Virus record (IMG/VR): IMGVR_UViG_3300045988_164075
Direction: 5' to 3' (one strand)
DNA length: 64,000 nt
Origin: a virus
Shown: one piece after another, positions 1-57,785 of the stretch
Position numbering within the stretch: position 1 is the first letter of the stretch
How the letters are laid out: every line of letters starts with the position of its first letter
Made by a program: the position numbers and the translations under genes
Notes under the pieces: model-generated
Database searches by the model: none
What the model was told of the DNA's origin: nothing
The model's input: the letters and a program-made list of their open reading frames with translations, nothing else

Positions 1-864
1 TAATAGTATTTCTCTAGCTTTTTCTAATACTGGTATCTTCATTCCTGTTTTTCCTACTAGCATCCTATTTGGATTTAAACCTTGAAAACGTATATAGTTT
101 TGACTAGCTAAATCACTTCCATAAGTGTTTTGTTTTCTTAATTTATTTTCAGTAGATATATCAGTAATTAATTCATTATATCTATTAGCTTGATCAATAA
201 ACCTGTTTGCTTTCCTTTTTCCAAATAAGAAACGTTTATTTCCTAAATTTTGAGCAGCATCGATATCTCCAGTAGATCCACCATATGCTCCTCGCACATC
301 ATCTATCTCCCCAGACTTATACGATTTATGTGTTTTACCTGCCATAAATCCACCGAGTGATCCAACAACAGGAATTGACATAATAGTATTGTTTAATCCT
401 GCACTACTAACTCCTGCTCTAGATGCTGCAACATTATCCATTTTGTCTAATTGTAATCCTGCAATAGAACCTATCATATTTAAACCACTATCTGCGAAAT
501 TAATAGCAGTTCCAATAGGTCCAGCTAGAGATATTAGTGATTTCATAGATGATTTCATTGCTTTTTGACTAGCATCTAGATTATCAGGAACAACACTATC
601 TAAAACTGTAGTAGCAGCAGTTAAGCCAGTTTGTAATCCATTAGACATTTTATAATCTTTGCCAGCTTTTCTTGTAATAGATAATCCTCCGATGTTTCCT
701 AAATTATTCCATTTAGAAGAATTTTCAGGAATAATTAAATTAGAAACTCCTGAAGTAATTGAAGGTAATGATTTTATAGAAGGAGTAACGGAATTAAATT
801 TTAAACTTGGAAGTTGCCCTCCTATTAAAGAAGCAATTGTATTCAATTGTTGTGCGTCATCCAT
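1..864 (-). CDS. virion-associated protein (Gly/Ser/Ala-rich), 3' end cut by window edge
   Basis: ATG at 864-862 lies one nt after the TAA (868-866) of the upstream gene. The frame stays open to position 1. It is missing from the ORF track only because no stop lies inside the window. Confidence 0.6.
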   Translation of the reverse strand, partial: MDDAQQLNTIASLIGGQLPSLKFNSVTPSIKSLPSITSGVSNLIIPENSSKWNNLGNIGGLSITRKAGKDYKMSNGLQTGLTAATTVLDSVVPDNLDASQKAMKSSMKSLISLAGPIGTAINFADSGLNMIGSIAGLQLDKMDNVAASRAGVSSAGLNNTIMSIPVVGSLGGFMAGKTHKSYKSGEIDDVRGAYGGSTGDIDAAQNLGNKRFLFGKRKANRFIDQANRYNELITDISTENKLRKQNTYGSDLASQNYIRFQGLNPNRMLVGKTGMKIPVLEKAREILL

Positions 865-865
865 T

Positions 866-3800
866 TTATGAATAACTTAAAGTCATTAAAGTTTTTAATC
901 CTGTAATAATAGCTAACTGTTTTCCTGAATATTTAACTCTTACTTTTAAAAACTTATCTCTAATTCTAGTTGATTGTATTGTATTGTTATAAATGATGTT
1001 ATTTTCATCTAACTTTCCGTTAATATATTTTGCAATACTTTCTTTATATAAAATAGGTTTAATTACAAGATGCCAAGAATCCTCTCTATATTGAATGTTA
1101 CCTTTAACTCTTCCGTATTTAATTATATTTTTAGCTTCCTGTGGAATGACTAAACTATATTGATTTAATACTGGATCTCAATCAATTTTAATATCTCATT
1201 TAGAATTTTTATGTAACTTAAAATCTTGAGAACGCTTAAATTTTGATCCTTCTTCTACATATTCTCCAACAGGACGCTGAGGATTATCGTTCCCTCAAAT
1301 ATAGCTTTTCTTTTCAGATTCATTATTTGCAAAGGTCTCAGCTTTATATATACCTGCTTTATTAAAACTATAACTATCTCCAATTATTTCAAATTCAAAG
1401 GATTCAGGCTCTGCGTTATTTGAAATAATCACAAGATTATTAAATATTTTATGTAAACCTGTTAAATTATTTACTACAAATTCAAATTCAAACGGATGCT
1501 GTTTATCATATCATTTTGTAGGTAATATCTGATTAGTGATATCCCTATCAAAATAGTTTATATCGTCAAATATACCTGCTCGACCGTGAACAAAAAATGC
1601 ATTATTTAATAATTCATTATATTTTTCTTTATCTAACGCTTTTAAATTATCGGAATCAATAGCAACTGCAATATTTTGTGTAACCGTACTACCTCAAATA
1701 TCAACTTTATTATCTTGATTTAGAGTTACTCCTGGAAACACTGTAATATTTAACAATAAATCATAATATTTAAATTCATAATCATCAAATTGTGTTCCTT
1801 GTTCTTCTTGCTTAATCTTAGTAGTAATTATTTTAGGATCTATTTCAATATAAGAAGTATTAGTCTCTGATATTAAAGGTAATACATATCCCGAATAATC
1901 TGATACATATTCTAATCCAACTATTCCACTATCTTCAACGGGCAGACTGTCATCTCATAATAATACTGGACAATTTTGAGAATCATTCGTTGAAAATGTA
2001 GAAATTGAGTTGATCCTAAATTTATACGTATTAAATAAGTTAGAATTGTATACTATTGCGGCTTTAAAATTATTAATATTATAATGCTTTGCTATCTCTT
2101 GTTCACCGCTTATAATAGGTTCTAAAGAAACATCTCATAAGTATTTTGGACTACTGAAATCATCGATTTTTAATAAATGTATTCCTATATCAGATTTACT
2201 TGCAAATACAGCACCTAAACGTTTTGCTCTTTCTCGATCTAACGAATAAAAAATATTATTAATATTTGCGGAATATAACGGGGTTCAAGTATATTCAGTT
2301 ATCCATTTATCTAGACGCTCATTATAACACAAATTCCAAGTTAAGTTACCGTTATAGAAAGTAAACATAACATCTCCTTTATACATGTTAAAGTGAGTTT
2401 TAACATTTCTAGATCCTATAACAGGGTATTTTTCTAATTCTTTTAAGTTAATATTATCATTTAAAAAACGTTGGACCTTAAAATCGGAAAGTAACTCAAG
2501 ACCTTTATTTTCACTAAAGCGCCATATTTTCTTAGCGTACGTATCTACTCCATAAATTCCTAATGGAGTTCTAACAATTGATTCTTTTCATATACTTCCA
2601 AAATCAGGAGAAATTAAAGTAATTTGATTTTGTAAGACTCCTGCTCCATACATGTGTATAGACTGTCCAGTATTTGTTGATATTAAAGCCTTTTCATTAA
2701 TTGGAATTATTCCTAATCCATGCTCAAATACACAGAAGAGATTAACACCTCAAGGTAACAATTTTACAATTGCACCATACTGTCTATCCAAATCTTTATA
2801 AGATAAACCCTGAAATATTCTATATGCATTTTGAAAACTATCTTCTACTTGTACATTACTAAACATTACTCTAGTATCAAAAAGTTCTTTAACATAAGGA
2901 ACATCTGGAACAATTTGATAACGTTTAGCACTTAAAGAAGTAGAATAACCTTCATTTAAGATAAAACTTTCAGGTACTTTACTTGTTGAAAAAACATTAT
3001 CTCCTTTTAAAGGATAAAACGATCTATTATTTCCCATTAAGGCTGCTTCTTCAGTATGTGTAGTATCCTCTGATCTTAATCCTAAATTATAATTAGATAA
3101 TACTTTAAACGTAATTCAAGAACCAATTGGAACTGTATTAACATCAGCTCTATTAATATTACTTCAGGAATCCTTATTCATACTAGTTAATCCTGAATAA
3201 TTATCTAATCATGTATTTGGATTTACAATTATTTCTGTTACAGGAGCGTCAGAATCAATAAAATTTCTTTGTAATCGTAACGTTATAGTATTAGTAAAAC
3301 AATCTCCTCTATAACCATCAATAACACTATCTGCTATAAAGGTATTTATATCGTATCTATCTGTAATTGTATAATAAGCAGATTGATCATTTGCTCTAAT
3401 TGTAAAATATTGCTTTAAAAATAATGTTGAATAATTAGAAATTCTAATATTATAAATACAGTTATCATCTAATTGTACATTTGTTGCCACAAATGGAACA
3501 TAATTACCTCTCGCTAATTTATAATTGTTTCAGTTATAACTTTTTTCAGATACAAATACAAATTGAGATACATCTTCTGCAGAACCTGCTCTAGTAGTAA
3601 ATCCCTTCTGATCTATAAATTTCAAGGGAGTATCATCAGGAACAAATAATAGTTTAGATTTAAAAATTCCACTATCTAAAGTAGCTTCTTTAAATGTTCA
3701 TTTATATCTCCTAGTAACTTGATTTACCTCTCCTGAAATAAATTTAGATAAAGTATATTCAGCTCCATTAAAAGTAGATTGTAGTGAAGGATTTACACAA

Positions 3801-5425
3801 GCATCTAAACATAATAATGCAGAAGAACCTTTATTGTTTATGTTTATAATTCTATCATTATATGATGTTGTAAGAACTGCTGAAGTTTGGCTTATGAAAC
3901 TTTCTGTTTCATAACGGCTAGTATTATCATTATATATAATCGGAACATAACTAGTAGTGTCAATTCCAATACTTAAACCTTGTGCTAATATAGTTGGGAT
4001 TCTTTTCTGTCTAACAAAGAAAAATCCTTTAACTTTATTTACTTTTAATTCAGAAACAATATCTTTACTTAATGTAAATTTAAAATATAAAGGTTTGGTT
4101 TCACCTTCAGAAAAAATACTAATATTAGGTAATTTAAAAACTCCTTTTGTATTTGATAGATTTTTTTCTTCAATAAATATATCTGCAGGTAAATAATTTA
4201 ATTTTTCACTATCTTTTATATATAGATTATTATATTTACTGTCTGAAGGTATATTCGTAGCTTCAAGTTTTGTAAATTGGCATCCTCTTAGATTATATAC
4301 AGGAGATAAAGAATCATCCTGCATAATATAAACAATGCCTAATCTGTACATCTCATCAGGTCAATATCCTAAATAGAAGTATGTATTTAAAGGATTATAG
4401 TATTCTGTTTGTTCAACACTATCGTTTTGTTGAATTTTATAATCACTGTCTAAATATCCAATCGTTTCATTTTTTTGTGTACAACGTACATCAATATAAT
4501 ACGATATTGTTTGTAAATCTCTATGATTTAATAAAATTCCTTGAGTATTTCCAAAAAATAACATATTTTGGACTTGAGCTTGAGTCTTAACTGCTGTAAC
4601 TAAATTATATTTAATATTTAATTGCTCCTCATCAATTTCTTTTACTTCCTCAAATCCATTTAAAGAAATTGTTATGGTGTTTTCAAGTATATCATAAGGT
4701 TTTATAACTTCATAACTTTTAGAATATTTAATTCCATTTAAATCACTTGAAGTTCTAGTATAATACAAATATACTCTAGAAAAAGTTGTATCAATATTAC
4801 TTAATTTTAATTCAATTGATTTATCTGTTAACTCTTCTAACAAAGCACCATATATTGTCGTAACATCACTAATTGTACCATGATATATAGATACTGTTCC
4901 AGATTCAGCTACAATATCTGTTTTATTGTAATCATTATCTGCTAATTTAATATAAAAAGTATAATTTCCTCCTTTTAATTGTCCATAATTACTAACCTCT
5001 ACTAACTGAATAACTGGTATACTATTTACATTTCTAAATAAACGTGTATCGCGATCAACGTTATTTTTATCGTATAAATTAGTTTGAGTAACTTGATTAC
5101 GACTTATTATTTTATATTTATTGTCTTCTGTAACACTGAAACGAGAATTAATAATTCTTGGAGGATTCTTATCATCATTTATTATTAAATTTACTGTTCC
5201 GTCATAGGAAGGTTGGCATTCTATATCAACAGGATTATTTAAATCTATACCTAATTCTGTACTTGGTACTTCAAAATCTTTAATCTGATCAGAATAACTT
5301 ATATCACTTTCTTGATATTTTACAGTTTCATCAGTACGATCGATAATATTATGTAATGGTTGATACTCATGTGCTAAATCTCCTTCTTGATTAAATTTAA
5401 TACACTGTATACCTATTTTTGTCAT
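866..5425 (-). CDS. very large virion/tail protein, 1519 aa if TGA is read as Trp
   Basis: ORF-track fragments 4361-5425, 3698-4351, 3209-3490 and 2750-3037 share one frame, and each ends in TGA (plus-strand tca at 4361, 3698, 3209, 2750). Spot translations at 1130-1260 and 2700-2750 stay protein-like (KWDIKIDWDP). First TAA in frame is at 866-868. Confidence 0.65.
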
Positions 5426-5426
5426 A

Positions 5427-8400
5427 TTATTTTTTAATTAGTTTAGGAATAATTGGACACGTACTAGTATTTGAATATACTCTTCAACAATTTCTGGTTC
5501 CATTATTGTAAAATCAAGTTTCAGCTAATTCTCCATTATAATCACAATATATAACATCATTATTTTTATCTCATTTTAGCATACTGACTAATCTATTTAT
5601 AGAACTATTATTTACATTTACATAATCATCTCCAATTCACTTAATAGTATTTCAATTTTCAGAAGATGCATTTTTTAAAATATCAGAATAGTCATTTTCA
5701 TGATTTTTTATATATTCGCTTATAGTGTTTTCGTTATCCGATATTCACTCGTTATATTTTGTTTGTATTTTTGAATCAATATTCCAATCTAATGTAATAG
5801 TATCTGGAACTTTCACAGTATATAAACTTTCAATGTTAATTATAGATTCATTTAATTTTCTTAAATTATTTGATTCAACTCCAAATTTACTTAATAAATC
5901 GCTTAAATTACTCGTATCGTTAATTAAATCATACGAACTATCTCCAAATTTATATAAGATTTTATTATATTTATGTGATACATTTAGAGACTTTCAAACA
6001 AATTGCCAATCGCCAGGTTCTACTAAATCACTTTTAACATTTACGTTTGCATAAGTTGTAGTCCCACCTTCTTTAATTAAGATTAGATATTTTCCTAATA
6101 ACTGTACTACTTTATTAATTTCAGTTAATTGTTCTTCTACAGTTCCATTAATATTAAAATTTCAATCATATTGCTTATCAGCTATTTCACACGGAATAAA
6201 TACAAAGGTATTTTGATTACCTTGTTTAGTTCTAACAAGAATAGCGTACCCTCCAGTATATGGTATATTATTATATATTGGATTATATCGCATATTAAAC
6301 TTCATAGGATAAACAGCTTCTATATAAACTACAAATATACAATACTTTTTTCCAATTGTATCACTATTTATTAACATATCTCAATCTTCCGATGCTTTAG
6401 TTCACGTCTCAGCTATGTTTTCTACACTTTCTTTAGTTTCACCAGAACTTACATTTCATCCAGGAGGATTGATTCATGTTTTATCACTATTATATTTCTT
6501 TATTCTATTTAATGAACAACCAATTGTGTCTCCTGTTCCATAAAGTTTTATTCCTAAATCAGAACTAGCTAATTTTTGATCACTACTATTTTCAAATACA
6601 TAATTTCCTGACATATAATGTATTAATGGAACTTCTATTTTTTGTATTATTGGTTCTGATTGATTAATAGCTTCAAAGGTGCACGTTTGAATTTGCGTTC
6701 TACTAAATATTGTTTTATAGGTAAGATTTTCATCAATATTAAAAGTTCTTGATGGATCAGGATAATTTGCAGTTTTATTGTTTACAACAAGATCTGTTAT
6801 TGCTCCAGAACTTTCATTATATTTATATGATAATGTTCTAGAAACTTCAATATTCTTAAATAATCTGCCTCTATTATAATTTGGCAAAAACTTTTCAAAA
6901 TTATCAAGAGTAGCAGTATAGTCACAACTTAATGTTATAGAAGCTGTAAAGTTTTTAATATATGAACTAGAGATATAAGTTGAATATTCTGGAGCAAGAG
7001 TATTTGGAAATTTTGTAGAATCTAGCTGTGTTATCGGATCAAGTTGAAGATTGGTAATCTCAGTCTTAGAAACATTATAACCTGATCCATATGTAGCTAA
7101 ATTTGAAATTCATTCATTTAAATAAATTTCATTAAAATCATCTCTTGTTGAGTAGAACGTATTTAATAACCTTGAAGTTATTAATAGTTTTGATTCAGAA
7201 ATAATTTCTTCACTTGTGTCTTTATTATATAAATATATTGTGAAAGTATATATGTCATTTTCAACGAACTTACTATTCCATTCTATACTAAGCGTATTTT
7301 GTCCATATAGATTTATATCAATAATTTCTTGTTTTTCTTGTTTTTCTTGTTTTTCTTCAAAAACTGAAACTAACTCGCCATCATCGCTAAGTTTTTTAAT
7401 ATCATATTTAGCTATAATGTTACTATTAGAATTAAAAGGTCCAGAAATAAAATAATTTAAAGTAATTCCGTTATCATTAATTAAATATTTATATATGCTT
7501 AATAATGATATTGTATCTTTATTAAAGATATCTTCAGAAGATATATCTATCTTAGTTGTAAATTGATCATAAATAATCTCTTTAAGTTCTATTTCTTCGT
7601 TGACATCTTTATATGGTATATTTGTAACTACAGGAGTTACATATAGAGAAGTTTTTATAATCTCCGCATTTTGTTTAGTTTGTACATTTTTTGTAACAGT
7701 TAAATCTAATTTAATAGTTTTAACTTTTGTTTGAATTTCTGGATATTCTAATGTTGAGTGATTAATATCTGTACTTAAAAGTGCACCATATGTTTTTTCA
7801 GGATCTTCTTGAGTATTATCTTTATGTGTAATATTTTCTGAACCGTATGATATAACTTGACCTGTTGTTTTATAGGCAACCTCATCACCATCATAGAGAA
7901 TTCTGAAATTTATATTCTTTAAAAGGTCTGTAGTATATAAATAGTCATCAGTTCAAACTTCTAAAGTTAATGTACATGTTAATGTTTTTCCTCCAAATTG
8001 ATTATATTTTAAATTTGTTATATAAAAGCTCAATTTAGAGATATTTAATACTCTAGATTTGCAACAAATTCATCCAGGAGTAGTTCAATTAACAACGTTT
8101 CATAATTTTGTATCTGTTGTTGAAATTTTACCTGTTGTAATATCGCTTAAGGATATAGTAATTGGTATAAACTTAGATTCTTCAGTAAAAACGTAATGAG
8201 ATAATTCATATCAATTATTATTCCCAATTAATTGTGCAATATTTTCATTATATAAATGAAATAAATCACCTGAGTATAATTTATAATTGTCATCATTACT
8301 ATATATCCAGGTTTTTAAAGATTTTTCAAATTCTGTATATAATTTATAATTGTATTCAAATGTTGGAAGTATCTCAATATTAGTTTCTTTTCCATCAGAA

Positions 8401-8714
8401 TCATTTTCAGATATAAATATACGTTGAGGAGACGGATATGATCCGATTTGACATAAATCTTTGATAGGATTATAGGAAATAATATATATTATATTTCCAT
8501 ATTCTCTTATTCCAACAGGAATAAAATCAGATCCTAAACTAGCTAATGGGAGTTTATAATTACCCATATCGTTTTGAAGAACAAACTCGTTTCCATTATA
8601 TGTGATTAAAGTTCCATTAATACAATCAGTTAATACTGTATTTGGAGTAGTTAATGGATTCATATCTTTAATCATTCCATCATTAAAAGTATTTGTAGCT
8701 TCTTGTCTAGACAT
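5427..8714 (-). CDS. large tail-associated structural protein, 1095 aa with TGA read through
   Basis: Fragments 8211-8714, 6474-6887 and 6162-6377 are in one frame, each ending in TGA (8211, 6474, 6162). TAA at 5427-5429 sits just before the next ATG (5425). Function is guessed from size and position in the crAss-like tail module. Confidence 0.6.
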
Positions 8715-8725
8715 AATCTATTCTA

Positions 8726-9268
8726 TTATATTTGTTCAAAACCATCTTTTGTTCTTCTATAAATATATTTAATATTTCTAGTTTCATAATTTTTTTGATA
8801 TAAGGTTCATCCTACATCTGTAGGAAAGTATAGCACAAAGAAGTGTTTTCTTCCTCTATCTAACATACACTCTTCTAAGATTTTGTAGGCATATATATAA
8901 TCGAACTTAACTCTTTGTCTTCTTCTTCCGCGAGACTTAAACTGAGCTTTATAATTCTCAAATTCTTTATCAGTTAGTCCGAAATAGTATTCTCCATTAA
9001 ATATTTTTTTAGCTCTTTTATACTTAATACGTAGCTTAATTTTATTCTTAATTCTTCAATAATGATAAAATATTAAATTATCTCTAAAGAATTTACCACA
9101 GTAAAGAGTAAAATAGGGGGATTTGAGTAACACATCTCCCCCATATACGTTATGTGTATAAAAAGATCTTAATCCAAATTTTAAAATATATTCGATTTCC
9201 TTTCTAGTTAATGAAGGGAATTTTTCTCATACTTTATCTACATAATCATCAACATATTTGATTTCCAT
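8726..9268 (-). CDS. hypothetical protein, 180 aa (contains in-frame TGA)
   Basis: ATG 9268-9266 overlaps the TAA of the upstream gene (TAATG coupling). Hand translation MEIKYVDDYVDKVWEKF... stays open to TAA 8726-8728. Confidence 0.55.
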
Positions 9269-9708
9269 TAGTAATACTGTTTACCTTTATTAATATTATC
9301 AATAAATATTTTCTTTAAGGCAGAATTTATATAAATTGGTTTTTCTCTATATCCGCCTTTATATTGATATCGATAGTAAATTTGATATCCTTTAAAATTA
9401 GACATCAAATAATCAATATCATTAAATTTCCCCATATTGTACATATGTCTAAACGTTTCTCCCGTAAATTGCTTTACGTGTATCATTGCTTCTTTATGTA
9501 CAGTTGGTAATACAAATGTAATATTATTATTAATAATATCCAAAATAATCAAATAGAAACAGTATGTTAAAACCTTAGCAACTAAGTCTAGTTTGCTATC
9601 ACCTTTACAATCTTTACCTCAAAATTTCTTTTTAGTAGTTAATCTAGAAATATTAAAATTATCAAATAAATCTTTTGAAGTAAAGCAGTATCCTGTTTTG
9701 TAAAACAT
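9268..9708 (-). CDS. hypothetical protein, 146 aa (one in-frame TGA)
   Basis: ORF 9268-9552 extends upstream through a TGA to ATG 9708 (MFYKTGYCFTSKDLF...). Ends in TAA. Confidence 0.55.
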
Positions 9709-9711
9709 TGA

Positions 9712-10401
9712 TTATAATATTGGTTTGAAAGACTTCATATAACTTTTTCGATCTCATCTAGTTTTAACATCTAATATAGCATCCATATCGTTTTGCGTAA
9801 ATTTAATAGGGATTCTTGCTGCACTACATGCTCGAAGTCATTCTCTTCTCGTTAATTCAGATAATTCAATTAAATTTTTATCTCTTAATGCAATACCTTG
9901 TTTATATAAATCACAATATCCAATATATGCAGCTAACGCAGTTACTTCTTTATCGTTTAGTAATGGTAGTCCTTCGTCATCCACTATTATACCATGATAT
10001 ATAATTATAACTCCTTTATAATCTCTATCAAATCTTAAAGAATTATCTTCTTGATGGTATTTAACTAATTTTCCAGGATGATAATAAGGATTATTTAAGC
10101 ATTTTCAAGCTTCAACATAATTTTCAATAAATAATGTTGTGATTTGATTAAATACTGTTTGATTAGTTGTCATTTGTGCATCTAACAATGGTAGATGAAC
10201 TGATTCAATTATATCGCAATTACAAGGTAATTCTATTTTTTTATCAATAGCATCTGCTTTATAACGGTATAAACGAGTGTGTTTATTTCCAATTTTTTCT
10301 CAACCATTTAAAGCTATATCTTCAAAAGCAGTTGGAGTTAAATTTGTTCCATATAAAGTTTGAGCTAAAGAATAAACTGAATTAAAATTATGTAGTTTCA
10401 T
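9712..10401 (-). CDS. hypothetical structural-module protein, 229 aa (several in-frame TGA)
   Basis: ATG 10401 overlaps the TAA of the upstream gene. Hand translation MKLHNFNSVYSLAQTLYGTNLTPTAFEDIALNGWEKIG... runs to TAA 9712-9714. Confidence 0.6.
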
Positions 10402-11066: not shown

Positions 11067-11087
11067 GTTATAATAATATTAAAAAAT

Positions 11088-11123
11088 AAAGGCAAGACAG
11101 GAAAGAATCCCGTCCTGCCTTTA
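11088..11123 (-). terminator. hairpin downstream of 11148-12287
   Basis: Arms aaaggcaagacagg / ccgtcctgccttt. The two mismatches become G-U pairs only in the minus-strand RNA, which supports the orientation. Confidence 0.55.
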
Positions 11124-11147
11124 AAATAAGTGCATTTATTTTGAAAC

Positions 11148-12287: not shown

Positions 12288-12311
12288 AGTTTTAAAAATT
12301 TAAAATGTTAT

Positions 12312-13043: not shown

Positions 13044-13073
13044 ATAATTTTCTATTTTTTAGAACTACTAGGT

Positions 13074-13889: not shown

Positions 13890-13953
13890 ATTTATTCTTA
13901 TTAAACTTGTTCTTATTTAAAATTTATCTAAAATAGTCTTAATCTATAAATTA

Positions 13954-13993: not shown

Positions 13994-14007
13994 TTATATT
14001 ATATTAA

Positions 14008-45739: not shown

Positions 45740-46041
45740 TATAATATATCGTTATTACAATAATCGTCTGTATCGATACATTGTGACTCATATCATTCGT
45801 GTTTAATTGCTCGGAAATGATGTGCTCGTTCTATTTGGCGTTTACGTAAGTCCTTAGCAATAAACTTTAGAAATGATTCTTTATCTCCTTGATAATTAAT
45901 AACCATAGGAGACATTTCTTGGTTTAGATATAAGTTTAATGTAAAATCATCTTCACTTTCGATTACTTTTAAGTGTCCAATATACTTACAACATGTAACT
46001 TTTTCAATAATATCTAAAACCTCTTTTTCTAATTGTGTCAT
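45739..46041 (-). CDS. hypothetical protein, 100 aa
   Basis: ORF 45793-46041 reads through TGA 45793 to a TAA that overlaps the portal ATG (TAATG). Confidence 0.55.
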
Positions 46042-47610
46042 GTTGTTGGAATTATACCATATCGTTTATATCCTCTGTCGTCAATATATCATCCAATATC
46101 TTTTCAAGTTTTAGTAACTTCGTTTTTAACTTTAGGATTAATTCCAGTTAATTCTTCATCCGCCATTTCACACATCCCAAGAGCAGCTACAATATCAAAT
46201 TTTCTTTTATTTTCGTATGAATAGTTTAGTAACTGTTCAAGCATTTCATCAGAATCAATTCCATAACAGTAATCATTTACAAAGTTATTAATCAATTCTA
46301 ATCCATGTTTAATAATAGTTTCTGTTGCAGGTACCCCTATCATGGCCGAATTTCCTTTTTTTATATCTCCTAAACTAGATTTTGGACGTCGCATAAATAG
46401 AGAATCTTTCTTTTTTTCTCTAAAGTAAGTTAATATACTGATTTTTGTATGTTCAAGTAACGCCTTACAATTGTACCATACTAAAATCTTCATTGCGTTT
46501 TCATAAGCTTCTCGTATGTCTCTTGGGCGATCTTTATAAATACAAACATATTTAGGTTCGTTTAAACCAAATACTCTTCTTTTTACAACAATACAAAAAT
46601 CTGATACATCGTATTGTGTTGCAGAATCCCCAGTACCCTGATCGATAGAGTCTATTCCTGCAACATATAAATTATTATATATATTACCTTCGCTATCTCG
46701 TTTTGGTTCTTCGTAAACTAATATTTTACTATTAGGACTAGATACTGCTTTAACTTTATTTCGAGAATTATCGTTATCTTCTCTATCTCATAATAACGCT
46801 ATATGTTGAGGAGAAGTTCCCATTTTATGTACTCGAATCTGAGTAATTCTATCTGCAATTAATACGGAATCAAATATATTTTCACCTTGTCGTAATAATG
46901 CTTCTTTAGGAGTAAAACAATATTCTGAACAATACTCTAATAACCGTTCTCCTGATTTTAATTTGCGTTGTTCTTCATAAAAAGCTTTAGCTCGTTTAGT
47001 ATCGGTTACTCCTCGATTATCAACATATCCAGGACGCATCATAAATTCATATGCTGGAATAAAGAACCCAGTATACTGTGCAGTACCATCATCTGAATAG
47101 AAGTTTTTATATGGAAGTACTCCTGCGCTTAATGGATCTTCAAACATTTTAGCTAAACCAGCTAGAGCAGGCCCCATATCACCTCCCGTCCCTCATGCGA
47201 TCTTAATCCCGACTCTAGCTCCTCCTAGTTCAACTAGAGCAGTACCTTGCGTTCACGATGTTGAAAGTATTGGATTAGATCCAGCCTCTTCAAATAAGAG
47301 TCTATCTACACGTTCACCTCTAATTTTTCTTGGGTGATCTGCTGTTATTCCTTCTATATCAGCCATTCGCCCAAATTCTATGCCTTCACTATCAACAAGA
47401 GATGCACGTTTGTGTTTTATATTATCAATTTTCTGACGAAGTCGTTTCATACCTCCGTCAGTATTTTGATTTAATCAGTTTAATTGTACTCAGCATTTAC
47501 CTAATACAGTATCAACATAACTCTCAGTATATGCTGTATAAATAGTAGTAAAACCTTTAGTAGTAATAAAAGGACGAACACCTAAACAAGCTCCAATTTC
47601 TGAAAAACCT
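46029..47610 (-). CDS. terL: terminase large subunit exon 2
   Basis: Fragments 47253-47450 (ADHPRKIRGERVDRLLFEEAGS), 46788-47177 and 46104-46493 are in one frame, linked by TGA (47253, 46104 and others). TAG at 46029-46031. Confidence 0.7.
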
Positions 47611-47877
47611 CAATTTTTGTTATCTCTAAGGCTTTTTATCCCTAGACTCTTATAATTTCTTATAAGTTCAGCATATATTTTCATCCTTAACTAAATATTA
47701 GGATGTTTCGCTCTCGTGGAAAGTTTATCTCTGTGATTCCTTTCTATGCGTTACGATGGTCAGTGATTAATTGACTTATCTCGCTGTTAACATAGTGATT
47801 TTAATCACCTTAGTCTTCTGCGATATAGCGAAATTTATTACTTTTATATTACTATAAAAGAGGGCAGGTATTAGTTT
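47611..47877 (-). ncRNA. group I-like intron in terL (no ORF, 267 nt, core unlike the MCP family)
   Basis: Non-coding structured block. P1 pairs ggggU with Gccct. P2 is cttttata-GTAA-tataaaag. Further helices are tcgct/agcga and gtgatt/aatcac. It ends in G (47611). Splicing gives LKSRGV-GFSEIGA. Confidence 0.6.
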
Positions 47878-48512
47878 ACCCCACGAGATTTTAATGCAAC
47901 ACAATCTTTATAAAGATATTCGCACATTTCTAGATAGTGAAAATATTCATATTGTTTTGCAAAAAAAGTTGGAAATGCTTCGGTACGTCCAGCACCAGCT
48001 TTTTTCTCTCCATCAACAGTTTTCATTCGATAGAAATTCAAAAAGAAATAATGATCTCCAGTTATCCTATATTTTCCAACAGTATAACCATCTACACAAC
48101 GTTTATACTGTTCTGTTCAATAATCACGATAAGGTTTACTATTTTTAGGATATTCTGTATAATGTCCTCTTTCCATAAACAATCTACCTGCCTCAGTAAA
48201 TGGAGTTGGATCAAAATCTAAACCTTGAGTTTCATTTATAGGTCTATAACCAGTTAATTCATAAGATAATTCTGGATCAAAATATAATATTTCTTCATCA
48301 AGAGGAACATCTCACGCACCATTGCGTTTTCTATGTCCTTCCTTAGGAAACTCATAATATGGACTTTCCTCTTCGTCTTCTGTTTTTGATACAGTTACAT
48401 CTTGAAATAATTTCTTTTTTAATTCTTCTTCATACCTGTCTGCAAATGTGGGTAAAGTTGCAGGAGGATTTTTTCTTGGTCTACCTCGTTTTCGTTTTAC
48501 TTCTTGTTCCAT
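47878..48512 (-). CDS. terL: terminase large subunit exon 1
   Basis: ORF 48312-48512 reads through TGA 48312. It continues ...FPTFFAKQYEYFHYLEMCEYLYKDCVALKSRG and is closed by TAA two codons into the intron. Confidence 0.65.
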
Positions 48513-48523
48513 TATTTATATTT

Positions 48524-49120
48524 TTATCTTTGGAGTTGATCCATATCTCCAAAACCTGGCTCGTTATCTGCTCTTAATTTGGATTGTGCTTTTAAACCTT
48601 TCTTATATGTAAGTTCAAGCTCCTTTAAATAAGCATCCATTTTTCCAATTTGAGTTAAACTTTCCATAATTTTTTTAGGATCGTTAATATATTTACCTCC
48701 ATTTAATTCATCTCTTTCGTTAAAATCGATTGAATCTAAAAATACTCTCATCTTTTCTAAAGTTCTAAATGCAGTTTTAATCAAACTTAGAATTCTTGAT
48801 GAATCTTTAAGTTCTATATATTTTCTACAAGCAGCTCTAAAAGTTTCATCATTAAACTCTTTTTCAGTAAGTCCGCTATCTTCCATAGCTGCTTGATGTT
48901 TCTCTTGTTCTAAGTATTCAAAATATGGAGATTTATAGTCTAAAGCTAAATAAATATATGCAAATTCTCTGTAAGCACGTAAACGTTTAATACCTTTAGG
49001 ATCTTCTTTACATTTATTTCTGTCTTCGTTTCATAGAGCTGCAAATTCTTTAATTAGCAAAATAGAATATTCATTAATCTCTAATCTCTGTAAATCATTA
49101 TTAAATATAAATAAATCCAT
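48524..49120 (-). CDS. hypothetical protein upstream of terL, 198 aa (small-terminase position)
   Basis: ATG 49120 (MDLFIFNNDLQRLEINEY...) reads through one TGA into ORF 48524-48886. Confidence 0.55.
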
Positions 49121-49139
49121 ATTATTCCTTATAAAACAA

Positions 49140-49160
49140 AGAGATGTATACTACATCTCT
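49140..49160 (-). terminator. 9-bp hairpin followed by a T-rich tract
   Basis: agagatgta-tac-tacatctct sits directly after TAA 49160-49162. Confidence 0.45.
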
Positions 49161-49903
49161 TATTTAACTCCATATTCTTCCCATCTTTGTTGATAAAAAT
49201 CATATTCGGGCGATCCTTTTTTATACAAATGTGGCTTAACTGCAATGTCAGTAGGATCTGCAATTCTCTTAAAAGATGTATCAGGAACTATAACTTGTCT
49301 TTCAACATATCCCTCATTTGGAGTTATAATTCGATCTTTAAAATTTATAGGAGAATAAACAACTCTTTTATATGTTCTAGTAGGACCACTAACAAGTTTT
49401 GGAAGTTTTGTTTCTTTAGCTCGATTAAAGCCTCAATCAAATCCTAGTCAATCTAGAAAAGTTCCTATAAGTCCAGGTTGATAAGGAATATAACTAGTTT
49501 TATTTTTGTTTTCTTTAACTTCTGTTCCTTTTTCAGCTTTTACAATTTTCTTAGTATCACATCCGCAGGCACATTTTTCAACAACTCCTCCATTCTCTAA
49601 TACTTTGTGCATTTCACATCCACAGGAACATTTCTTAGTTTTTAGTTTGCCACCTTTTTTATGCAAAGAAACAATGTAATCTAATTTACTTGTAGGAAGA
49701 ATTCCTCCATTAGCAAATTTAGAAGGGTCTTTATCTTGTTCTTCTAAGAACGTATTCATTAGAGTCTGAATAGTTTGTTTACCTTCGTCTGTTTCATATA
49801 ATCGATTTAAATCTTCTGCAACTTCTTCTAAAGATTTGCCTTTAAATTCTTCAAATTTTGTTGGAAGTCATTCTAAAAATTTTTGTATTTTCTTTTCGTC
49901 CAT
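49160..49903 (-). CDS. hypothetical Cys-cluster protein, 247 aa
   Basis: ATG 49903. ORF 49448-49759 is in frame and extends through TGA 49448 to TAA 49160. Contains CSCGCEMH...CACGCD. Confidence 0.55.
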
Positions 49904-49908
49904 TTTAT

Positions 49909-50076
49909 TTAACAAATAGTCGTGTTATATTTATAATATGGTTCTATAGGAATATTTTTAATATAAGGAACATATGTATTAGAATTGTCAAGAAAGTCTT
50001 TAATTTTCTCAAATTCATCTACACTACATTCTATATATTTAATATAAAGATTATTCAGATAAATCTTCATTTTCAT
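49909..50076 (-). CDS. possible small protein, 55 aa
   Basis: Hand-translated ATG 50076 to TAA 49909. Packing is the only support. Confidence 0.3.
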   Translation of the reverse strand: MKMKIYLNNLYIKYIECSVDEFEKIKDFLDNSNTYVPYIKNIPIEPYYKYNTTIC

Positions 50077-50296
50077 AAAACTTTAAATCTTTAGTAGAAA
50101 AGATTGCTTCCTGTAAAGTAGCATTATTATCATATCATCTACATCTAATTCCTTTAAATAAGGATTCAAGATTCGCTCCTTTCTTTATCGTTTGCATTAC
50201 TCTTCCTACTACATACATAACTGGACGATTTGGAATAGGATGTCTTAGTATTACCAAATCTCCAGGATTAAAAAATATTTTATCTTCTAGCATCAT
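50051..50296 (-). CDS. hypothetical protein, 81 aa (one in-frame TGA)
   Basis: The ATGATG start overlaps the upstream TAA (TAATGATG). TAA at 50051. Confidence 0.45.
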
Positions 50297-50802
50297 TAAT
50301 TTTTATTTACAATTCTACATATAATATTTTGTTCCGTAATAGCATAATATCCTCGATTATCAAAAGGTATTGGTGCAGGAATATTTCTACAATATACATC
50401 CTCTCCAACTTTTACATTTTTACATTCAGGTCCAATAGCAATTACTTCTGCACAAATAATTTCCTGATGAGATTCTTCCATTTCTCCAGATTCGTGACTA
50501 AAATACATTTCATGTCCATCTAAACCATAGATAATCCCTGAAGCACTAGTCTTAATACTACGATAGGGATTTCTATCATAAAGTTTAATGATTACATTAC
50601 TATTACAAGCTACAATTTCTTTGTTAGCTGCAGATTTAACTCCTTCATTTTGTTTACATAAATTATCTGCCATTTCAAGTTGAGCTTGTTCTTGCAATTT
50701 TTTCATCACTTCTTTATCTGTTGTAGTTAAATCTTCTGATTGATCGAGTCCTGGCATATAATGTATGCCTGTTAATTCCATTTTTCTATTTCCTAAATCC
50801 AT
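50296..50802 (-). CDS. GroES-like co-chaperonin, 168 aa
   Basis: The C-terminal 100 aa fit the Cpn10 pattern: VIIKLYD...SGIIYGL...AEVIAIGPECKNVKVGEDVY...YYAITEQNIICRI. Confidence 0.5.
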   Translation of the reverse strand: MDLGNRKMELTGIHYMPGLDQSEDLTTTDKEVMKKLQEQAQLEMADNLCKQNEGVKSAANKEIVACNSNVIIKLYDRNPYRSIKTSASGIIYGLDGHEMYFSHESGEMEESHQEIICAEVIAIGPECKNVKVGEDVYCRNIPAPIPFDNRGYYAITEQNIICRIVNKN

Positions 50803-50803
50803 T

Positions 50804-51013
50804 TTATCACTTATTTTTTAAACATTTTTCTTCTCTTACTCGGACTTTAGCATCTAATATACATCCACATAAATCACAACTATCTTGACCTAAAAATTTT
50901 ACATTATGCTGACAGTGCTTACAAATATCTAATCGATAATTTGCTAAATCTTGTTCTTTTAAAAAGATTTTATTGTATCAACCTATTAATATATGTTTTA
51001 TATTAATCTGCAT
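50804..51013 (-). CDS. Cys-rich zinc-ribbon protein, 69 aa
   Basis: MQINIKHILIG-W-YNK...CKHCQHN...CDLCGCILDAKVRVREEKC...KW, then TAA. Confidence 0.5.
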
Positions 51014-51014
51014 A

Positions 51015-51284
51015 TTATCATTTTCTTATAATACATTTTGCATTTGATAGACGGACTTTTTTACTTAAATTACAACCGCACCCTTTAACGTATCCTTCTT
51101 TTCCGTAATTTACCACATCTTTTCCATCTTTACTAATATATAAAGAACTATTACAAATAGGACCTACTGGAGTCTTTTTATATAATGGACACTTCATGCA
51201 TATCTTTAAACGTTTATTACTTAAATTCTCATTAGCTCCAAATAATTCTTTAATATGCCCATCTAATATATCTATAAATCCCAT
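51015..51284 (-). CDS. Cys-rich zinc-ribbon protein, paralogue of 50804-51013, 89 aa
   Basis: ORF 51018-51284 ends at TGA and then TAA (...CIIRKW). It has the same C..C...CGC.L..K.R....C layout. Confidence 0.6.
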
Positions 51285-51351
51285 AATATTTTATTTAAAA
51301 AAGATACTCCAATTATATTTATAACCTTTTAACTTGCAATTGTAACGATTA

Positions 51352-52290
51352 CTAATATACGATTGGAGTATCTTTTGATAATTCTTCTTTTATAAGTAGT
51401 TGTTTTTTGTAGTGTTTAAGAAGTACTTCTACTTCTTTTTTCATATATTCTACTTCAATTTCTTCAACTTTATTTGAATGATCAATGTGAATTAACTTTA
51501 ACATTTTAATATTTAAATCTGGATTAATTTGTTGAAGCAAATAAGCATACATTGATAATTGAAGTGTATAGTGCATTAAATTACAATCCTGAATTGTATT
51601 TAAAGGATATTTTAGACATTCGTATCGTTTTGTTGATTTATTATAATAAGATTTGCGATCGATTTTTTTATTAGTTTTAAAATCTATAATTATTATATCG
51701 TTCCCATCTTTAATTAATAAATCAATTTGTCCTGCAACTCTCAATACGCCATCTCTTGATTTTACACTAATAAGAAATTCTGGATATACTGCTTTTTCTG
51801 TATCAAGTCGATAATATCCTTTTTTAACACTAAATTTTCCACCTAATCCGTATCTTTTTAGTTCTTTTTCTGGATTTTGATACATTGAGTTTTCAAACTC
51901 AGCATGTATTTTAGTGCCACGTTCACAGGATTTATTTTTTTCATCTTCGTAACTTTGTAAGATTTCTTCTCGTTTAGTATTAAATTGAGATTCATCAATA
52001 CTAAGTTTATGTAAAATAGATGGATCAAATTTTTTAGTTGCAAGTAACACTTTCTTTAAAGCTGCAAACGTTACATCGTCTGTTAATGATTCTAATGCTT
52101 TATATGCTGATCAAAAAGCAGAATCAAATATATTAGTATAATTGTGAATTAGTGTCGTAACAGATATATAATAGGATCCATCTGTTTTATCTATATAAAC
52201 ATGTTGCTGATCATTATAAATTACATTGTCATTTTCTTTATCAATAGATAAGTCATTATAAAACTTATCTTTTTCTAAAACCATTGTCAT
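51352..52290 (-). CDS. PD-(D/E)XK (Cas4/RecB-like) nuclease, 312 aa
   Basis: ATG 52290 reads through one TGA into ORF 51352-52050. Motifs: GQIDLLIKDGNDIIIIDFKT and YTLQLSMYAYLL. TAG stop. Confidence 0.6.
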
Positions 52291-52296
52291 AAATCA

Positions 52297-52995
52297 CTAG
52301 TATTTTAATACATCTCTAATAACGTGTCCTTGTCCCATTAAATCGTGTACTACATTTGGACTAGTTGGAACTTCGTCATCACAACTAAAACACCACAATG
52401 CAGCTAATGGAGATTTATCTGTATTACGTATAAGAATTACAATATATCCCTTAATATTTTCATTCAAACATCTAGTATAGGAATTTTTATCAATTGTTTC
52501 TAAAGATTTTAGAGTTCTTATTACTTGGCCATGTTTTAATAATTCTGCATTTAAATCTGAGTACATAGATGATGGAACATTTTGCATTTCAGTTTTTTTA
52601 GCAGTTACTTTCATTTTTATTTCTCTTATTCTTTCATGAGAAATAGACATTCTTAAATACGGCATCCCATTAGTCATTGTGATATTATCATGATAAATCA
52701 TTAGAGATGTACGATTAAATCCATAGGTAATATTTAAATTATCTAAAATAGAATTAATAACTCTATCTACTTCGGGAGATTTTTCAATAACATGATTTAA
52801 TATACTATCGTGTCTTTGGTTTATTTCATTTACTACTTCTGTTTTAGAATTTATAACCAAACATTCGGTATATTCTTTAGTAATTATATTTAATGCAAAG
52901 ACAATTAACAGTATAAACAATGTTCTTCAAACATCCTTCCAGTTTTTAATTTTATCAACTATAAATGAGAATCAATCTAGAAAAGTATTTCACAT
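52297..52995 (-). CDS. membrane-anchored protein, first gene of the late operon, 232 aa
   Basis: ATG 52995 is followed at once by TGA (M-W-NTFLD-W-FSF...). An N-terminal TM segment follows. ORF 52297-52920 is in frame. TAG stop. Confidence 0.55.
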
Positions 52996-53096
52996 TTTAT
53001 TACTTAGTTTTAAATTTTTTATTTTTACTTTGCAAATTTATTTATTATTTTTGTGAAATACAAAATAAAAATATTTAAACTAATAACTTACTAAAT

Positions 53097-56385: not shown

Positions 56386-56391
56386 GTTGTT

Positions 56392-56568
56392 TTAAGACTT
56401 TACAAAATATTTATCTTTAATTCTTTTAAGGAACCAACCAATTCCAAATACATACGTTACTAACGCAACAATTGTTACATAAAATGGAAGCAATTTGATT
56501 GCTGCTAAGATTGCTACTATTACAACTATTATAATAGCAGCTAAAATTCATTTTTCTTTAGTTGTCAT
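56392..56568 (-). CDS. small two-TM membrane protein, 58 aa
   Basis: MTTKEK-W-ILAAIIIVVIVAILAAIKLLPFYVTIVALVTYVFGIGWFLKR... Confidence 0.45.
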
Positions 56569-57785
56569 TTTAAATCATTGTGTGTTTGTGTTCTTTCTCT
56601 AATCTCTTTTTCAATATTTGCTGGACGTACATAACCTGAAATCAATCCATTATTAACATCTAAAGGAGTTTGTCCAGAATGAAATAATTTATGATTTGTT
56701 TTAGTTTTAACTCAATCCATGTAAGTATCTTTTCCTTTAACTGTATTAATTAGATAATCGGCTTGTCTTTTTAACATACTATCTGTTGGAATTGTAGTAT
56801 CTAACATATCTTGATATCGTTCAGGAGATCAATGAATTAAGCCGTTATATTTCCCGCTAGAAGAGGGATTATTAACTTCTCCTCCACTTTCATGAATAAT
56901 ATTGCTAATTAAACTAAGAACTTGTTCTTCAGGTAATTGATTCGAAATAAAATAATTATATAATCAATTTATATTTTCAGGATTATATGATCTTTTGATT
57001 GTTTTCTGAGCATTGATTAATTTTTGCAATCGATCTTGTTCTATTTTTAAATTTTGAATTTTTTCAAATAAACCTATAAACTCATTATTATATGTTTCAG
57101 GAATAGTATTTTTAAATTTTGTAGGATCATATGGAGGATATTTTGGAACTTTCATTCCAAATTTAGCACTAGCTATCATTTTATTTAAAATATTTTTGTA
57201 TCTAGGATCAGTAGCATATCCGCCTTTAGCTACTTTATCTGCAAATTCATTTACTGTACCTGAAAATGCTTTATATCTATTATTGTTTAATAGATTTACA
57301 TGATAATTAGCATAATCTTCTAAAGAGTTAAAATCTCTAAAACTGTCATATATATATTGATCTTTCCCATTTATAACTTCTCTTGTGCGTCTTTTTGTTC
57401 CTTTTCCTTTAATTCCTCCTAAATTAAATTTGCCAGATTGTGATTTACCTCAGTTTGATTCTAATCCAGATTGTTGTACTAACGCTTTAGCAAAAGAAGT
57501 ATCAATACCTTTAGAAGCTAATATCTTTTCATATAAAGGAGTCATAACTTTGATAAATTCCGATTTATTTTGAAAAACTTTTGGATACTTTGTTTCTTCT
57601 TGAGGTATTTCTATGATTACTTTTTCTTGAGGTTCTTTTAATAAAGTTGGAGTATAACCTTCTAATGAGGTAGTCTTTATTTTCTTTTTAGGTAAGATTA
57701 TTGTTTCCTGTTCGGGAATTATATTGATTTTAGATTCTCTAATGACAGGTTGATATATTAACTGTTGTTTTAATCAATTATTCAT
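56541..57785 (-). CDS. peptidoglycan hydrolase with GH73 glucosaminidase domain, 414 aa
   Basis: ATG 57785. ORF 56964-57179 is in frame. Motifs: LVQQSGLESN-W-GKSQSGKFNLGGIK (TGA at 57451-57453) and GGYATDPRYKNIL. TAG at 56541. Confidence 0.65.

What the first reader, a model, noticed from the sequence alone, without database searches (positions are those of the whole stretch)
1..57785. TGA is a sense codon (Trp) throughout the late and lysis modules
Every break I checked between same-frame ORF-track fragments is TGA. Examples: 2750, 3209, 3698 and 4361 within one 1519-codon frame; 6162, 6474 and 8211; 13518; 21608; 24020; 25667; 27106; 33451; 34888; 44762 (portal); 46104, 47253 and 48312 (TerL). 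Every gene end I could trace is TAA or TAG, often coupled to the next start as TAATG. TGA also falls on invariant Trp positions of recognisable enzymes. In the GH73 motif E-S-N-[TGA]-G-K-S it is at 57451-57453, and in the M15 motif T-[TGA]-L-H-I-D it is at 55166-55168. Read with code 4, the fragments fuse into proteins of 1519, 1095, 1047 and 2082 aa. TGA-to-Trp recoding is known in some crAss-like phages, but it changes every gene call here.
Basis: partly seen in the sequence, partly recalled or inferred. Interest (0 to 1): 0.8.

Follow-up and report, generated by a model that had tools for sequence, protein, structure and literature searches.

The report
Gut phage reads TGA as tryptophan

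Summary
All 20 cited positions are in-frame TGA codons; only the GH73 site is off by one base (57450-57452). With TGA as sense, coding density in 1-57785 rises from 0.54 to 0.92. The fragments fuse into the stated 1519, 1095, 1047 and 2082 aa proteins. All 52 late genes end in TAA or TAG.

TGA means Trp. In alignments with TGA masked as X, window TGA codons match TGA or TGG in 155 related loci, then Tyr. In relatives that never use TGA, 10 of 19 covered sites are Trp, against a 0.8% background. Gly, Cys and Arg are excluded.

Two refinements apply. First, recoding is not uniform. The head-gene island at 10401-20138, which includes the major capsid gene, has 1 TGA and 17 TGG, and relatives show the same bias. 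Second, TerL, portal and the capsid gene are broken by introns and homing endonucleases as well as by TGA.

The phage belongs to the Zeta group of crAss-like phages. It is very probably subgroup zeta_13, which Yutin et al. 2021 list as 'TGA|w'. The finding is therefore already known.

One question stays open. Neither the published scan of zeta_13 genomes nor my scan of about 122 of 162 kb found a tRNA that reads UGA.

The parts
1..53037 (-). Leftward block of virion and packaging genes plus a few nuclease genes, readable only if TGA is a sense codon. Excluding the head island and the homing endonucleases, the late genes have 183 TGA and 32 TGG; that count also includes the lysis genes at 53097-57785.
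866..5425 (-). 1519-aa virion structural protein with 16 in-frame TGA, including the cited 2750, 3209, 3698 and 4361.
   Evidence: (phrog_15100)
5427..8714 (-). 1095-aa protein with 18 in-frame TGA, including the cited 6162, 6474 and 8211.
10401..20138 (-). Head-gene island that avoids TGA: 9 genes with 1 TGA and 17 TGG. It holds a scaffold-like acidic protein (19065-20138), the major capsid gene and neighbouring genes. The two GIY-YIG homing-endonuclease ORFs inside it (14115-15014, 16613-17692) do carry TGA.
   Evidence: Fisher p = 4e-12 against the other late genes
15216..19020 (-). Major capsid protein gene split into at least 5 mapped exons: 19020-18940, 18668-18219, 16569-16312, 16025-15726 and 15452-15216. 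Four Rfam group I introns lie between them: 17952-18231, 17690-17916, 16040-16323 and 15465-15735. The exons contain no TGA.
   Evidence: (homologues hit PF23898 Crass_capsid)
21194..24337 (-). 1047-aa protein with 17 in-frame TGA, including the cited 21608 and 24020.
25205..27016 (-). 603-aa tail-fibre-like protein with 6 in-frame TGA, including the cited 25667.
26944..33192 (-). 2082-aa Thr/Ser-rich protein with 37 in-frame TGA and 2 TGG, including the cited 27106.
33241..35598 (-). 785-aa protein with 8 in-frame TGA, including the cited 33451 and 34888.
39586..41409 (-). 607-aa collagen-repeat tail protein with 15 in-frame TGA. Several sites are TGA or TGG only across relatives.
42385..45739 (-). 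Portal gene in two pieces (44549-45739 and 42385-43434), separated by an insertion that carries an HNH endonuclease ORF (43493-44368). The TGA at 44762 is codon 326, which is TGA in 50 relatives and TGG in 28.
46029..48512 (-). Large terminase gene. Exon 1 is 48512-47878 and exon 2 is 47610-46032 plus the stop codon. A 267-nt intervening sequence lies at 47611-47877. There are 10 exonic TGA, including the cited 46104, 47253 and 48312.
   Evidence: 99.5-100% identical to the uninterrupted 738-aa P0011
53097..56371 (+). Rightward cassette of small genes with in-frame TGA. It includes an M15-type peptidase (54791-55225; TGA at 55166-55168) and an endonuclease VII gene without Trp codons (53405-54145).
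56541..57785 (-). 414-aa lysin with GH73 glucosaminidase and phage tail lysozyme domains and 6 in-frame TGA. The catalytic-motif TGA is at 57450-57452.
57786..64000 (.). Start of the other gene block (GC 0.31-0.36). Trp is written TGG and code 4 gives no real gain in coding density. Two ORFs end in TGA and have a TAA or TAG 6-10 codons downstream (58021-58272, 58241-58573). The second TGA overlaps the next ATG as ATGA.

Best explanation
The window is about 40% of the roughly 162-kb genome of a Zeta-group crAss-like phage, most probably subgroup zeta_13.

In its virion, packaging and lysis genes UGA is not a terminator. It is the main codon for tryptophan (190 TGA against 50 TGG), and every one of these genes ends in UAA or UAG.

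The adjacent block at 57786-64000 avoids in-frame TGA, as does the first 18 kb or so of the forward block in near-identical relatives. That block can therefore be translated by an unmodified standard-code host. Genes carrying many TGA codons can yield full-length protein only once UGA is read as Trp in the infected cell. This ties virion assembly and lysis to a late switch of the code, which is the published model for recoded phages.

Within the late block, the major capsid gene and its neighbours keep TGG. This bias is conserved across the clade. I infer that it protects the most abundant virion proteins from dependence on, or inefficiency of, UGA decoding.

Shown: the in-frame TGA codons, their equivalence to Trp, the choice of terminators, and the gene-by-gene distribution.
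Inferred from published work: the temporal logic.
Unknown: the molecule that reads UGA. No UCA-anticodon tRNA was found in the window or in the sampled parts of relatives' genomes.
For: Sites and frames.
Coding density 0.92 against 0.54.
Codon comparison with 155 related loci, with TGA masked.
Likelihood test favouring W.
FlgJ alignment.
Trp frequency and stop-codon use.
Lineage: TerL and portal PHROGs; crAss TerL hits; relatives on contigs of 145-204 kb; a hit to OLWB01000021.1.
Literature: Yutin 2021 describes TGA to Trp mostly in late genes of Zeta phages, an intron-split capsid gene without recoded codons, and zeta_13 listed as 'TGA|w'. Borges et al. give the late-gene and lysis regulation model. 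Babkin 2025 describes the opal-recoded Zeta phage Lera.
TGA-poor forward block in a contig 95-97% identical over the 7.7 kb it shares with the window.
Head-gene TGA avoidance conserved in relatives.
Against: No suppressor tRNA(UCA) and no tRNA-Trp were found in the window. None was found in about 58 kb of flanking sequence from near-identical contigs.

No Trp-tRNA synthetase, release factor or deaminase was found among the 10 forward-block ORFs scanned.

In relatives, some forward-block genes more than 18 kb into the block also contain TGA. The early/late split is therefore not clean.

There is no protein-level evidence. The published proteomic validation covers TAG to Gln only.
Confidence: 0.92

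Rival explanations
1. The host itself uses genetic code 4, as Mollicutes do. The phage simply matches its host, so no code switch and no phage suppressor are needed.
For: No suppressor tRNA was found in the window or in flanking sequence of relatives, nor in the published scan of zeta_13 genomes. GC is low, 29.7%. Some opal-recoded Zeta phages have predicted Firmicutes hosts (Holdemanella, Faecalibacillus).
Against: TGA use is strongly gene-specific inside one genome. The first 18 kb or so of the forward block and the capsid genes write Trp as TGG almost exclusively, although they are equally AT-rich. A host-matched code 4 predicts TGA everywhere. The predicted hosts of Zeta phages use the standard code. 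Sister clades of the same phage group use TAG recoding or no recoding.
Confidence: 0.05
2. TGA is read as Trp, but not by a conventional phage-encoded UCA suppressor tRNA. Candidates are a highly divergent or interrupted phage tRNA, a phage enzyme that edits or modifies host tRNA-Trp(CCA), or a change to host release factor 2. This is a rival for the mechanism only.
For: Yutin's table lists zeta_13 genomes with 9 tRNAs and no suppressor anticodon. My ARAGORN and Rfam scans of about 122 of 162 kb found 17-19 tRNAs, none with UCA and no tRNA-Trp. The array holds aberrant tRNAs, one with a 6-nt anticodon loop and one 58-nt gene without a D arm. Only 35% of code-4 phages have a detectable TGA suppressor.
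Against: About 40 kb of the genome was not scanned here. The published scan found only about half of the tRNAs that ARAGORN finds, so it is not exhaustive. Other Zeta opal phages (Lera, ct1yV3, c815351) do carry tRNA-Sup-TCA. No deaminase, synthetase or release factor turned up in the 10 ORFs checked.
Confidence: 0.35
3. TGA encodes glycine (code 25, as in Gracilibacteria and Absconditabacteria and their phages), or selenocysteine or cysteine.
For: TGA is reassigned to Gly in some CPR bacteria of the human microbiome.
Against: At window TGA sites in diverged relatives, W is the commonest non-TGA residue at 46 of 125 such sites, Gly at 3 and Cys at 1. The log-likelihood for Gly is 213 nats below W, and for Cys 186 nats below. 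In TGA-free relatives no covered site is Gly or Cys. With 190 sites, site-specific selenocysteine insertion is implausible.
Confidence: 0.01
4. The in-frame TGAs are real stops. The region would then be a decayed or misassembled genome with fragmented pseudogenes.
For: Standard pipelines do call fragments here, for example 129-aa and 119-aa 'TerL' entries in JGI and NCBI.
Against: Only TGA interrupts the frames, never TAA or TAG. TGA codons sit at conserved Trp positions. The same TGA codons recur in many independent near-identical contigs and in abundant protein clusters of 330 or more members. Coding density under code 4 is 0.92.
Confidence: 0.005

Closest known systems
Zeta-group crAss-like phages, subgroup zeta_13 (e.g. 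cMAG OLWB01000021, 162,190 nt), Yutin et al. 2021, Nat Commun 12:1044
   Same: TGA is reassigned to Trp, mostly in late genes. Genomes are about 162 kb. The capsid gene is split by group I introns and has no recoded stops, and TerL and other core genes carry introns or inteins. There is a tRNA block and no suppressor tRNA is listed. A contig 95-97% identical over the 7.7 kb it shares with the window encodes a protein 98% identical to one encoded in OLWB01000021.
   Different: Nothing substantive. Direct overlap between the window and OLWB01000021 could not be fetched, so the subgroup assignment is indirect.
Phage Lera / ct1yV3 (proposed genus Echekvirus, Zeta crAss-like), Babkin et al. 2025, Int J Mol Sci 26:7694
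   Same: TGA interrupts TerL and structural and lysis genes. Code 4 restores them, and Trp is found at the aligned positions of homologues. The genome has a forward replication and tRNA block and a reverse virion block, with homing endonucleases.
   Different: Lera carries tRNA-Sup-TCA and tRNA-Sup-CTA; none was found for this lineage. Lera is 180 kb and has a diversity-generating retroelement. It belongs to a different Zeta clade.
TGA-recoded Agate and Jade phages, Borges et al. 2021/2022
   Same: Code 4 is used in structural and lysis genes while early genes stay compatible with the standard code. A suppressor tRNA is detectable in only 35% of such genomes.
   Different: These are unrelated phage clades. 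Jade phages carry an explicit code-change operon (tRNA-Sup, TrpRS, RF1) upstream of the lysis cassette. No counterpart was found next to the lysis cassette here.
Code 15 (TAG to Gln) crAss-like phages, Ivanova 2014 and Peters 2022
   Same: The logic is the same: a stop codon is reassigned in late genes of crAss-like phages that infect standard-code hosts.
   Different: The codon and amino acid differ. Only code 15 has proteomic validation.

Membership tests
Phage with stop-codon recoding, genetic code 4 (TGA = Trp) | Conserved genes (TerL, portal, lysins) are interrupted by in-frame TGA only, and are restored by reading TGA as sense. | tested here: met
   40 of 52 late genes carry TGA, 190 sites in all. 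Coding density is 0.92 against 0.54.
Phage with stop-codon recoding, genetic code 4 (TGA = Trp) | TGA positions align with Trp in homologues. | tested here: met
   TGA-masked alignments. TGA-free relatives show W at 10 of 19 sites against a 0.78% background. FlgJ alignment.
Phage with stop-codon recoding, genetic code 4 (TGA = Trp) | Recoded genes do not terminate with TGA. | tested here: met
   TAA 44, TAG 8, TGA 0.
Phage with stop-codon recoding, genetic code 4 (TGA = Trp) | Early genes are compatible with the host's standard code. | tested here: met
   In 57786-64000 Trp is written TGG, and ORFs that end in TGA have a TAA or TAG 6-10 codons downstream. In a near-identical contig the first 18 kb or so of the forward block lacks convincing in-frame TGA, but later forward genes do have some.
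Phage with stop-codon recoding, genetic code 4 (TGA = Trp) | Phage-encoded suppressor tRNA with a UCA anticodon. This is frequent but not universal. | tested here: not met
   None in the window. None in about 58 kb of flanking sequence of near-identical relatives. None listed for zeta_13 by Yutin. About 40 kb was not scanned here.
Phage with stop-codon recoding, genetic code 4 (TGA = Trp) | Peptides spanning TGA positions carry Trp. | not testable with these tools
   No proteomic data. The published validation covers code 15 only.
Zeta-group crAss-like phages (Crassvirales; proposed Echekviridae) | crAss-type TerL, portal and major capsid protein. | tested here: met
   phrog_6681 and phrog_6547. 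tblastn to crAss TerL at 26-29% identity. Capsid homologues hit PF23898 Crass_capsid above its cut-off.
Zeta-group crAss-like phages (Crassvirales; proposed Echekviridae) | Genome of 145-192 kb with a large tRNA block. | tested here: met
   Near-identical proteins lie on contigs of 156-164 kb. An array of 17-19 tRNAs begins about 2 kb to the right of the window in relatives.
Zeta-group crAss-like phages (Crassvirales; proposed Echekviridae) | [quoted passage not shown] | tested here: met
   Four Rfam group I introns in the capsid gene. TerL and portal are interrupted. Three homing-endonuclease ORFs.
Zeta-group crAss-like phages (Crassvirales; proposed Echekviridae) | Membership of subgroup zeta_13 (OLWB01000021-like). 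| tested here: inconclusive
   The link is indirect. The window is 95-97% identical over 7.7 kb to an IMG/VR contig. A protein of that contig is 98% identical to one encoded in OLWB01000021. No overlapping DNA could be compared.
Code 25 (TGA = Gly) phages of Gracilibacteria and Absconditabacteria | TGA aligns with Gly. | tested here: not met
   Gly is the commonest non-TGA residue at 3 of 125 sites, and its likelihood is 213 nats below W.
Phage matching a code-4 host (Mollicutes type) | TGA is the preferred Trp codon genome-wide, early genes included. | tested here: not met
   The right-hand block and the head genes use TGG.

The most novel reading that the evidence does not exclude
In this lineage (zeta_13), UGA may be decoded as Trp without any conventional phage-encoded UCA suppressor tRNA. 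Candidates are an unrecognisably divergent or interrupted tRNA, a change to the anticodon of host tRNA-Trp, or interference with release factor 2.

A second point is that the phage keeps its major capsid and neighbouring head genes free of TGA. This bias is conserved across diverged relatives. It suggests that UGA decoding is costly or comes late, even within the late programme.
Probability: 0.35. Interest if true: 0.7.

Novelty: already known. Interest (0 to 1): 0.2.

Why it matters
Practical. Standard-code gene callers shred this abundant gut phage into fragments. Public entries for its TerL are 119-129 aa instead of 738 aa. Any annotation of this window must use code 4 and must also model the introns.

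Biological. The window adds nothing new to the published picture of late-gene TGA recoding in Zeta crAss-like phages.

Two points may deserve follow-up. The agent that decodes UGA in zeta_13 is still unidentified. The major capsid and neighbouring head genes avoid TGA across the clade, which Yutin 2021 mentioned only for a single genome.

Tried and rejected
- Pfam did not recognise TerL; PHROGs did.
- A PDB sequence search gave nothing for the M15 peptidase or for the concatenated capsid exons.
- Rfam at a permissive threshold found no family in the TerL or portal insertions, nor in 12800-15500.
- The suppressor tRNA hunt used ARAGORN on the window and on loci reached by walking about 10 kb left and 48 kb right through near-identical contigs. 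It also used Rfam tRNA models and a home-made stem-loop and T-arm scan for UCA anticodons. The strict scan gave 0 hits. The relaxed scan gave only poor matches inside coding sequence. A positive control recovered 9 of 17 known tRNAs.
- Ten forward-block ORFs were scanned against Pfam for synthetase, release-factor or deaminase domains. None was found.
- Code 15, code 25, selenocysteine, pseudogenes and a code-4 host were considered and rejected (see the rival explanations).


Full report
**Observation**

The window has 29.7% GC and most genes lie on the minus strand. All 18 'break' coordinates read TCA on the + strand, which is TGA on the - strand. Each is in frame with a long ORF bounded only by TAA or TAG. 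The M15 site (55166-55168, + strand) is correct. The GH73 site is at 57450-57452, one base lower than written.

Reading TGA as sense fuses the fragments into the stated proteins of 1519, 1095, 1047 and 2082 aa. In 1-57785, non-overlapping ORF coverage is 0.541 (mean 144 aa) under code 11. It is 0.918 (mean 316 aa) under code 4 and 0.639 under code 15. Shuffled sequence read with code 4 gives 0.18-0.24 and no ORF above 141 aa.

The 52 late genes contain 190 in-frame TGA and 50 TGG. They end in TAA (44) or TAG (8), never TGA. 'TAATG coupling' exists but is rare, at 4 of 43 junctions.

**Which amino acid**

To avoid circularity I translated TGA as X in both the window and the relatives. I fetched 155 related loci around TerL and the 1519-aa protein, spanning 47-98% protein identity. 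I then read the codon aligned to each window TGA.

- In close relatives, window TGA aligns to TGA (605) or TGG (16).
- At middle distance it aligns to TGA 418, TGG 176 and TAT 61.
- At far distance it aligns to TGG 363, TGA 334 and TAT 118.
- The window's own TGG codons show the same profile.

Twelve related loci have no in-frame TGA at all. They cover 19 window TGA sites, which align to W at 10, Y at 5 and F at 1. The background rate of W is 0.78% (p = 7e-17). A BLOSUM62 likelihood ranks W first by 91 nats over 125 sites. Gly, Cys and Arg are 186-213 nats worse.

Some sites are strictly TGA or TGG across the clade. Portal codon 326 is 50 TGA and 28 TGG. Codon 65 of the TerL exon 2 ORF is 53 and 34. 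TerL exon 1 codons 67 and 132 are 55 and 31, and 57 and 30.

Independently, LESNxGKSQ of the GH73 lysin aligns with LETGWGKSQ of solved FlgJ structures. Trp content of the late proteins is 1.36% with TGA = W and 0.28% otherwise.

**What the element is**

PHROGs identify the large terminase, the portal, tail proteins, a virion structural protein, an exonuclease and endonuclease VII. Pfam identifies the GH73 lysin, which also has a phage tail lysozyme domain, and the M15 peptidase.

TerL matches crAss-like phages at 26-29% identity and two unannotated gut phage records at 41-48%. Near-identical proteins lie on contigs of 156-164 kb.

A contig that is 95-97% identical to window 56315-64000 encodes a protein 98% identical to one encoded in OLWB01000021.1, which is 162,190 nt. 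That cMAG is in subgroup zeta_13 of Yutin et al. 2021. It is listed there with translation 'TGA|w', 9 tRNAs and no suppressor anticodon. It is the paper's own example of intron-split, TGA-containing genes.

The same paper states that recoding is mostly in late genes. It also describes a Zeta capsid gene split into five pieces by group I introns with no recoded stops. Babkin et al. 2025 describe the same features in the Zeta phage Lera. Borges et al. give the general model.

1. TGA use is gene-specific. The head island at 10401-20138 has 1 TGA and 17 TGG in 9 genes, excluding two homing endonucleases. The other late genes have 183 and 32 (Fisher p = 4e-12).

   This bias is conserved in diverged relatives that do use TGA:
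   - Orthologues of 11148-12287 have 1 TGA and 117 TGG.
   - Orthologues of 13074-13889 have 0 and 66.
   - Three capsid exons (15198-15455, 15720-16028, 16291-16572) have 0 and 118 between them.
   - Orthologues of 37312-39572 have 11 and 101.

   The split gene is the major capsid gene. Its exons align colinearly with single ORFs in two phage records. Homologues 69-77% identical to it hit PF23898 'Crassvirus major capsid protein'.

2. Not all breaks are TGA. TerL has a 267-nt insertion at 47611-47877. Its two exons are 99.5-100% identical to an uninterrupted 738-aa TerL. The first 25 codons of the 551-aa ORF, including one TGA, lie in that insertion. The portal is split by an insertion that carries an HNH endonuclease. 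The capsid gene has four Rfam group I introns and probably more.

3. The right-hand 6 kb belongs to the other gene block. There Trp is TGG and code 4 brings no gain. Two ORFs end in TGA with a TAA or TAG 6-10 codons further on, and one of these TGAs forms an ATGA overlap with the next start. In the near-identical contig the first 18 kb or so of this block lacks convincing in-frame TGA. Several later forward genes do contain TGA, so the split is early versus the rest, not replication versus structure.

**Mechanism**

The coding facts are shown. The regulatory reading is inferred from the literature and fits the codon distribution here. Under that reading, standard-code-compatible genes are expressed first, and TGA-rich virion and lysis genes are translatable only once UGA is read as Trp.

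The decoder is not identified. The window has no tRNA. An array of 17-19 tRNAs starts about 2 kb to the right in relatives, but it holds no UCA anticodon and no tRNA-Trp. A further 20 kb or so to the right and 10 kb to the left hold none either.

A home-made scan found nothing convincing. Ten forward-block ORFs show no synthetase, release factor or deaminase. About 40 kb of the genome was out of reach. This gap matches the published table for zeta_13 and the general statistic that only 35% of code-4 phages have a detectable suppressor.

**Verdict**

The phenomenon and this very lineage are already published. Interest is low, apart from the open question of the decoder and the conserved avoidance of TGA in head genes.

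Noticed in passing
window 15216-19020 (-): The major capsid gene is split into at least 5 mapped exons. Four group I introns pass the Rfam threshold (15465-15735, 16040-16323, 17690-17916, 17952-18231). Two further gaps have no Rfam hit: 18669-18939, and the stretch after 15216 that holds the GIY-YIG ORF 14115-15014. About 19 C-terminal residues seen in the homologue P0150 were not located.
   Followed up: partly
window 47611-47877 (-): A 267-nt insertion splits TerL exactly between ...SRGV and GFSEIG.... The last exon-1 base is U and the last base of the insertion is G, as in group I introns, yet Rfam finds nothing at E <= 0.1. Its 3' 70-100 nt match unannotated or unrelated spots in Clostridioides, Staphylococcus, Arcanobacterium and crAss phages at 77-87% identity. 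Many relatives have an uninterrupted 738-aa TerL, and one cluster (P0010) has an intein instead.
   Followed up: partly
window 43435-44548 (-): The portal gene is interrupted by about 1.1 kb that carries an HNH-type endonuclease ORF (43493-44368). The element has no Rfam match, so its class is undetermined.
   Followed up: partly
L088 1410-1480 (-) = L091 7402-7472 (+), about 6 kb to the right of the window end in a 95-97% identical contig: A tRNA gene (Rfam 45 bits) has a 5-bp anticodon stem that closes a 6-nt loop (AUUUUA). ARAGORN reports a 2-nt anticodon. It is conserved in a second relative (L093).
   Followed up: no
L091 9742-9799 (+) = L098 65-122: A 58-nt tRNA-like gene (Rfam tRNA model, 40.8 bits) was missed by ARAGORN. 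It seems to lack a D arm and has the anticodon loop UUUACGU (anticodon UAC, Val).
   Followed up: no
window 62013-62514: A 0.5-kb segment is absent from the otherwise 95-97% identical contig. It encodes a 132-140 aa protein with a signal peptide (MKKFILFLMVLLGAVTCNAQ...) and 6 TGG codons. It looks like a variable accessory gene.
   Followed up: no
L156 17601-19891 (+), about 45 kb to the right of the window in relatives: A tandem family of at least six small paralogous ORFs (100-180 aa) share an N-terminal motif IQS[FIY].DI[IV]TNSS.E.F. Their function is unknown.
   Followed up: no
window 46029-48512; protein clusters: Public annotations of this TerL are fragments: a 129-aa JGI 'hypothetical protein', and for a 63%-identical relative 61-aa and 348-aa JGI fragments and the 119-aa NCBI TPA entry DAM45641.1. 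This shows that standard-code calls persist in databases.
   Followed up: yes
loci L063-L066, L069-L073, L075, L080, L082 (TerL about 49-50% identical): A sister clade of 120-185 kb contigs has no in-frame TGA in the TerL neighbourhood. The genetic code therefore switches within the Zeta group at this phylogenetic distance, as published. I did not check whether these contigs use TAG recoding.
   Followed up: partly
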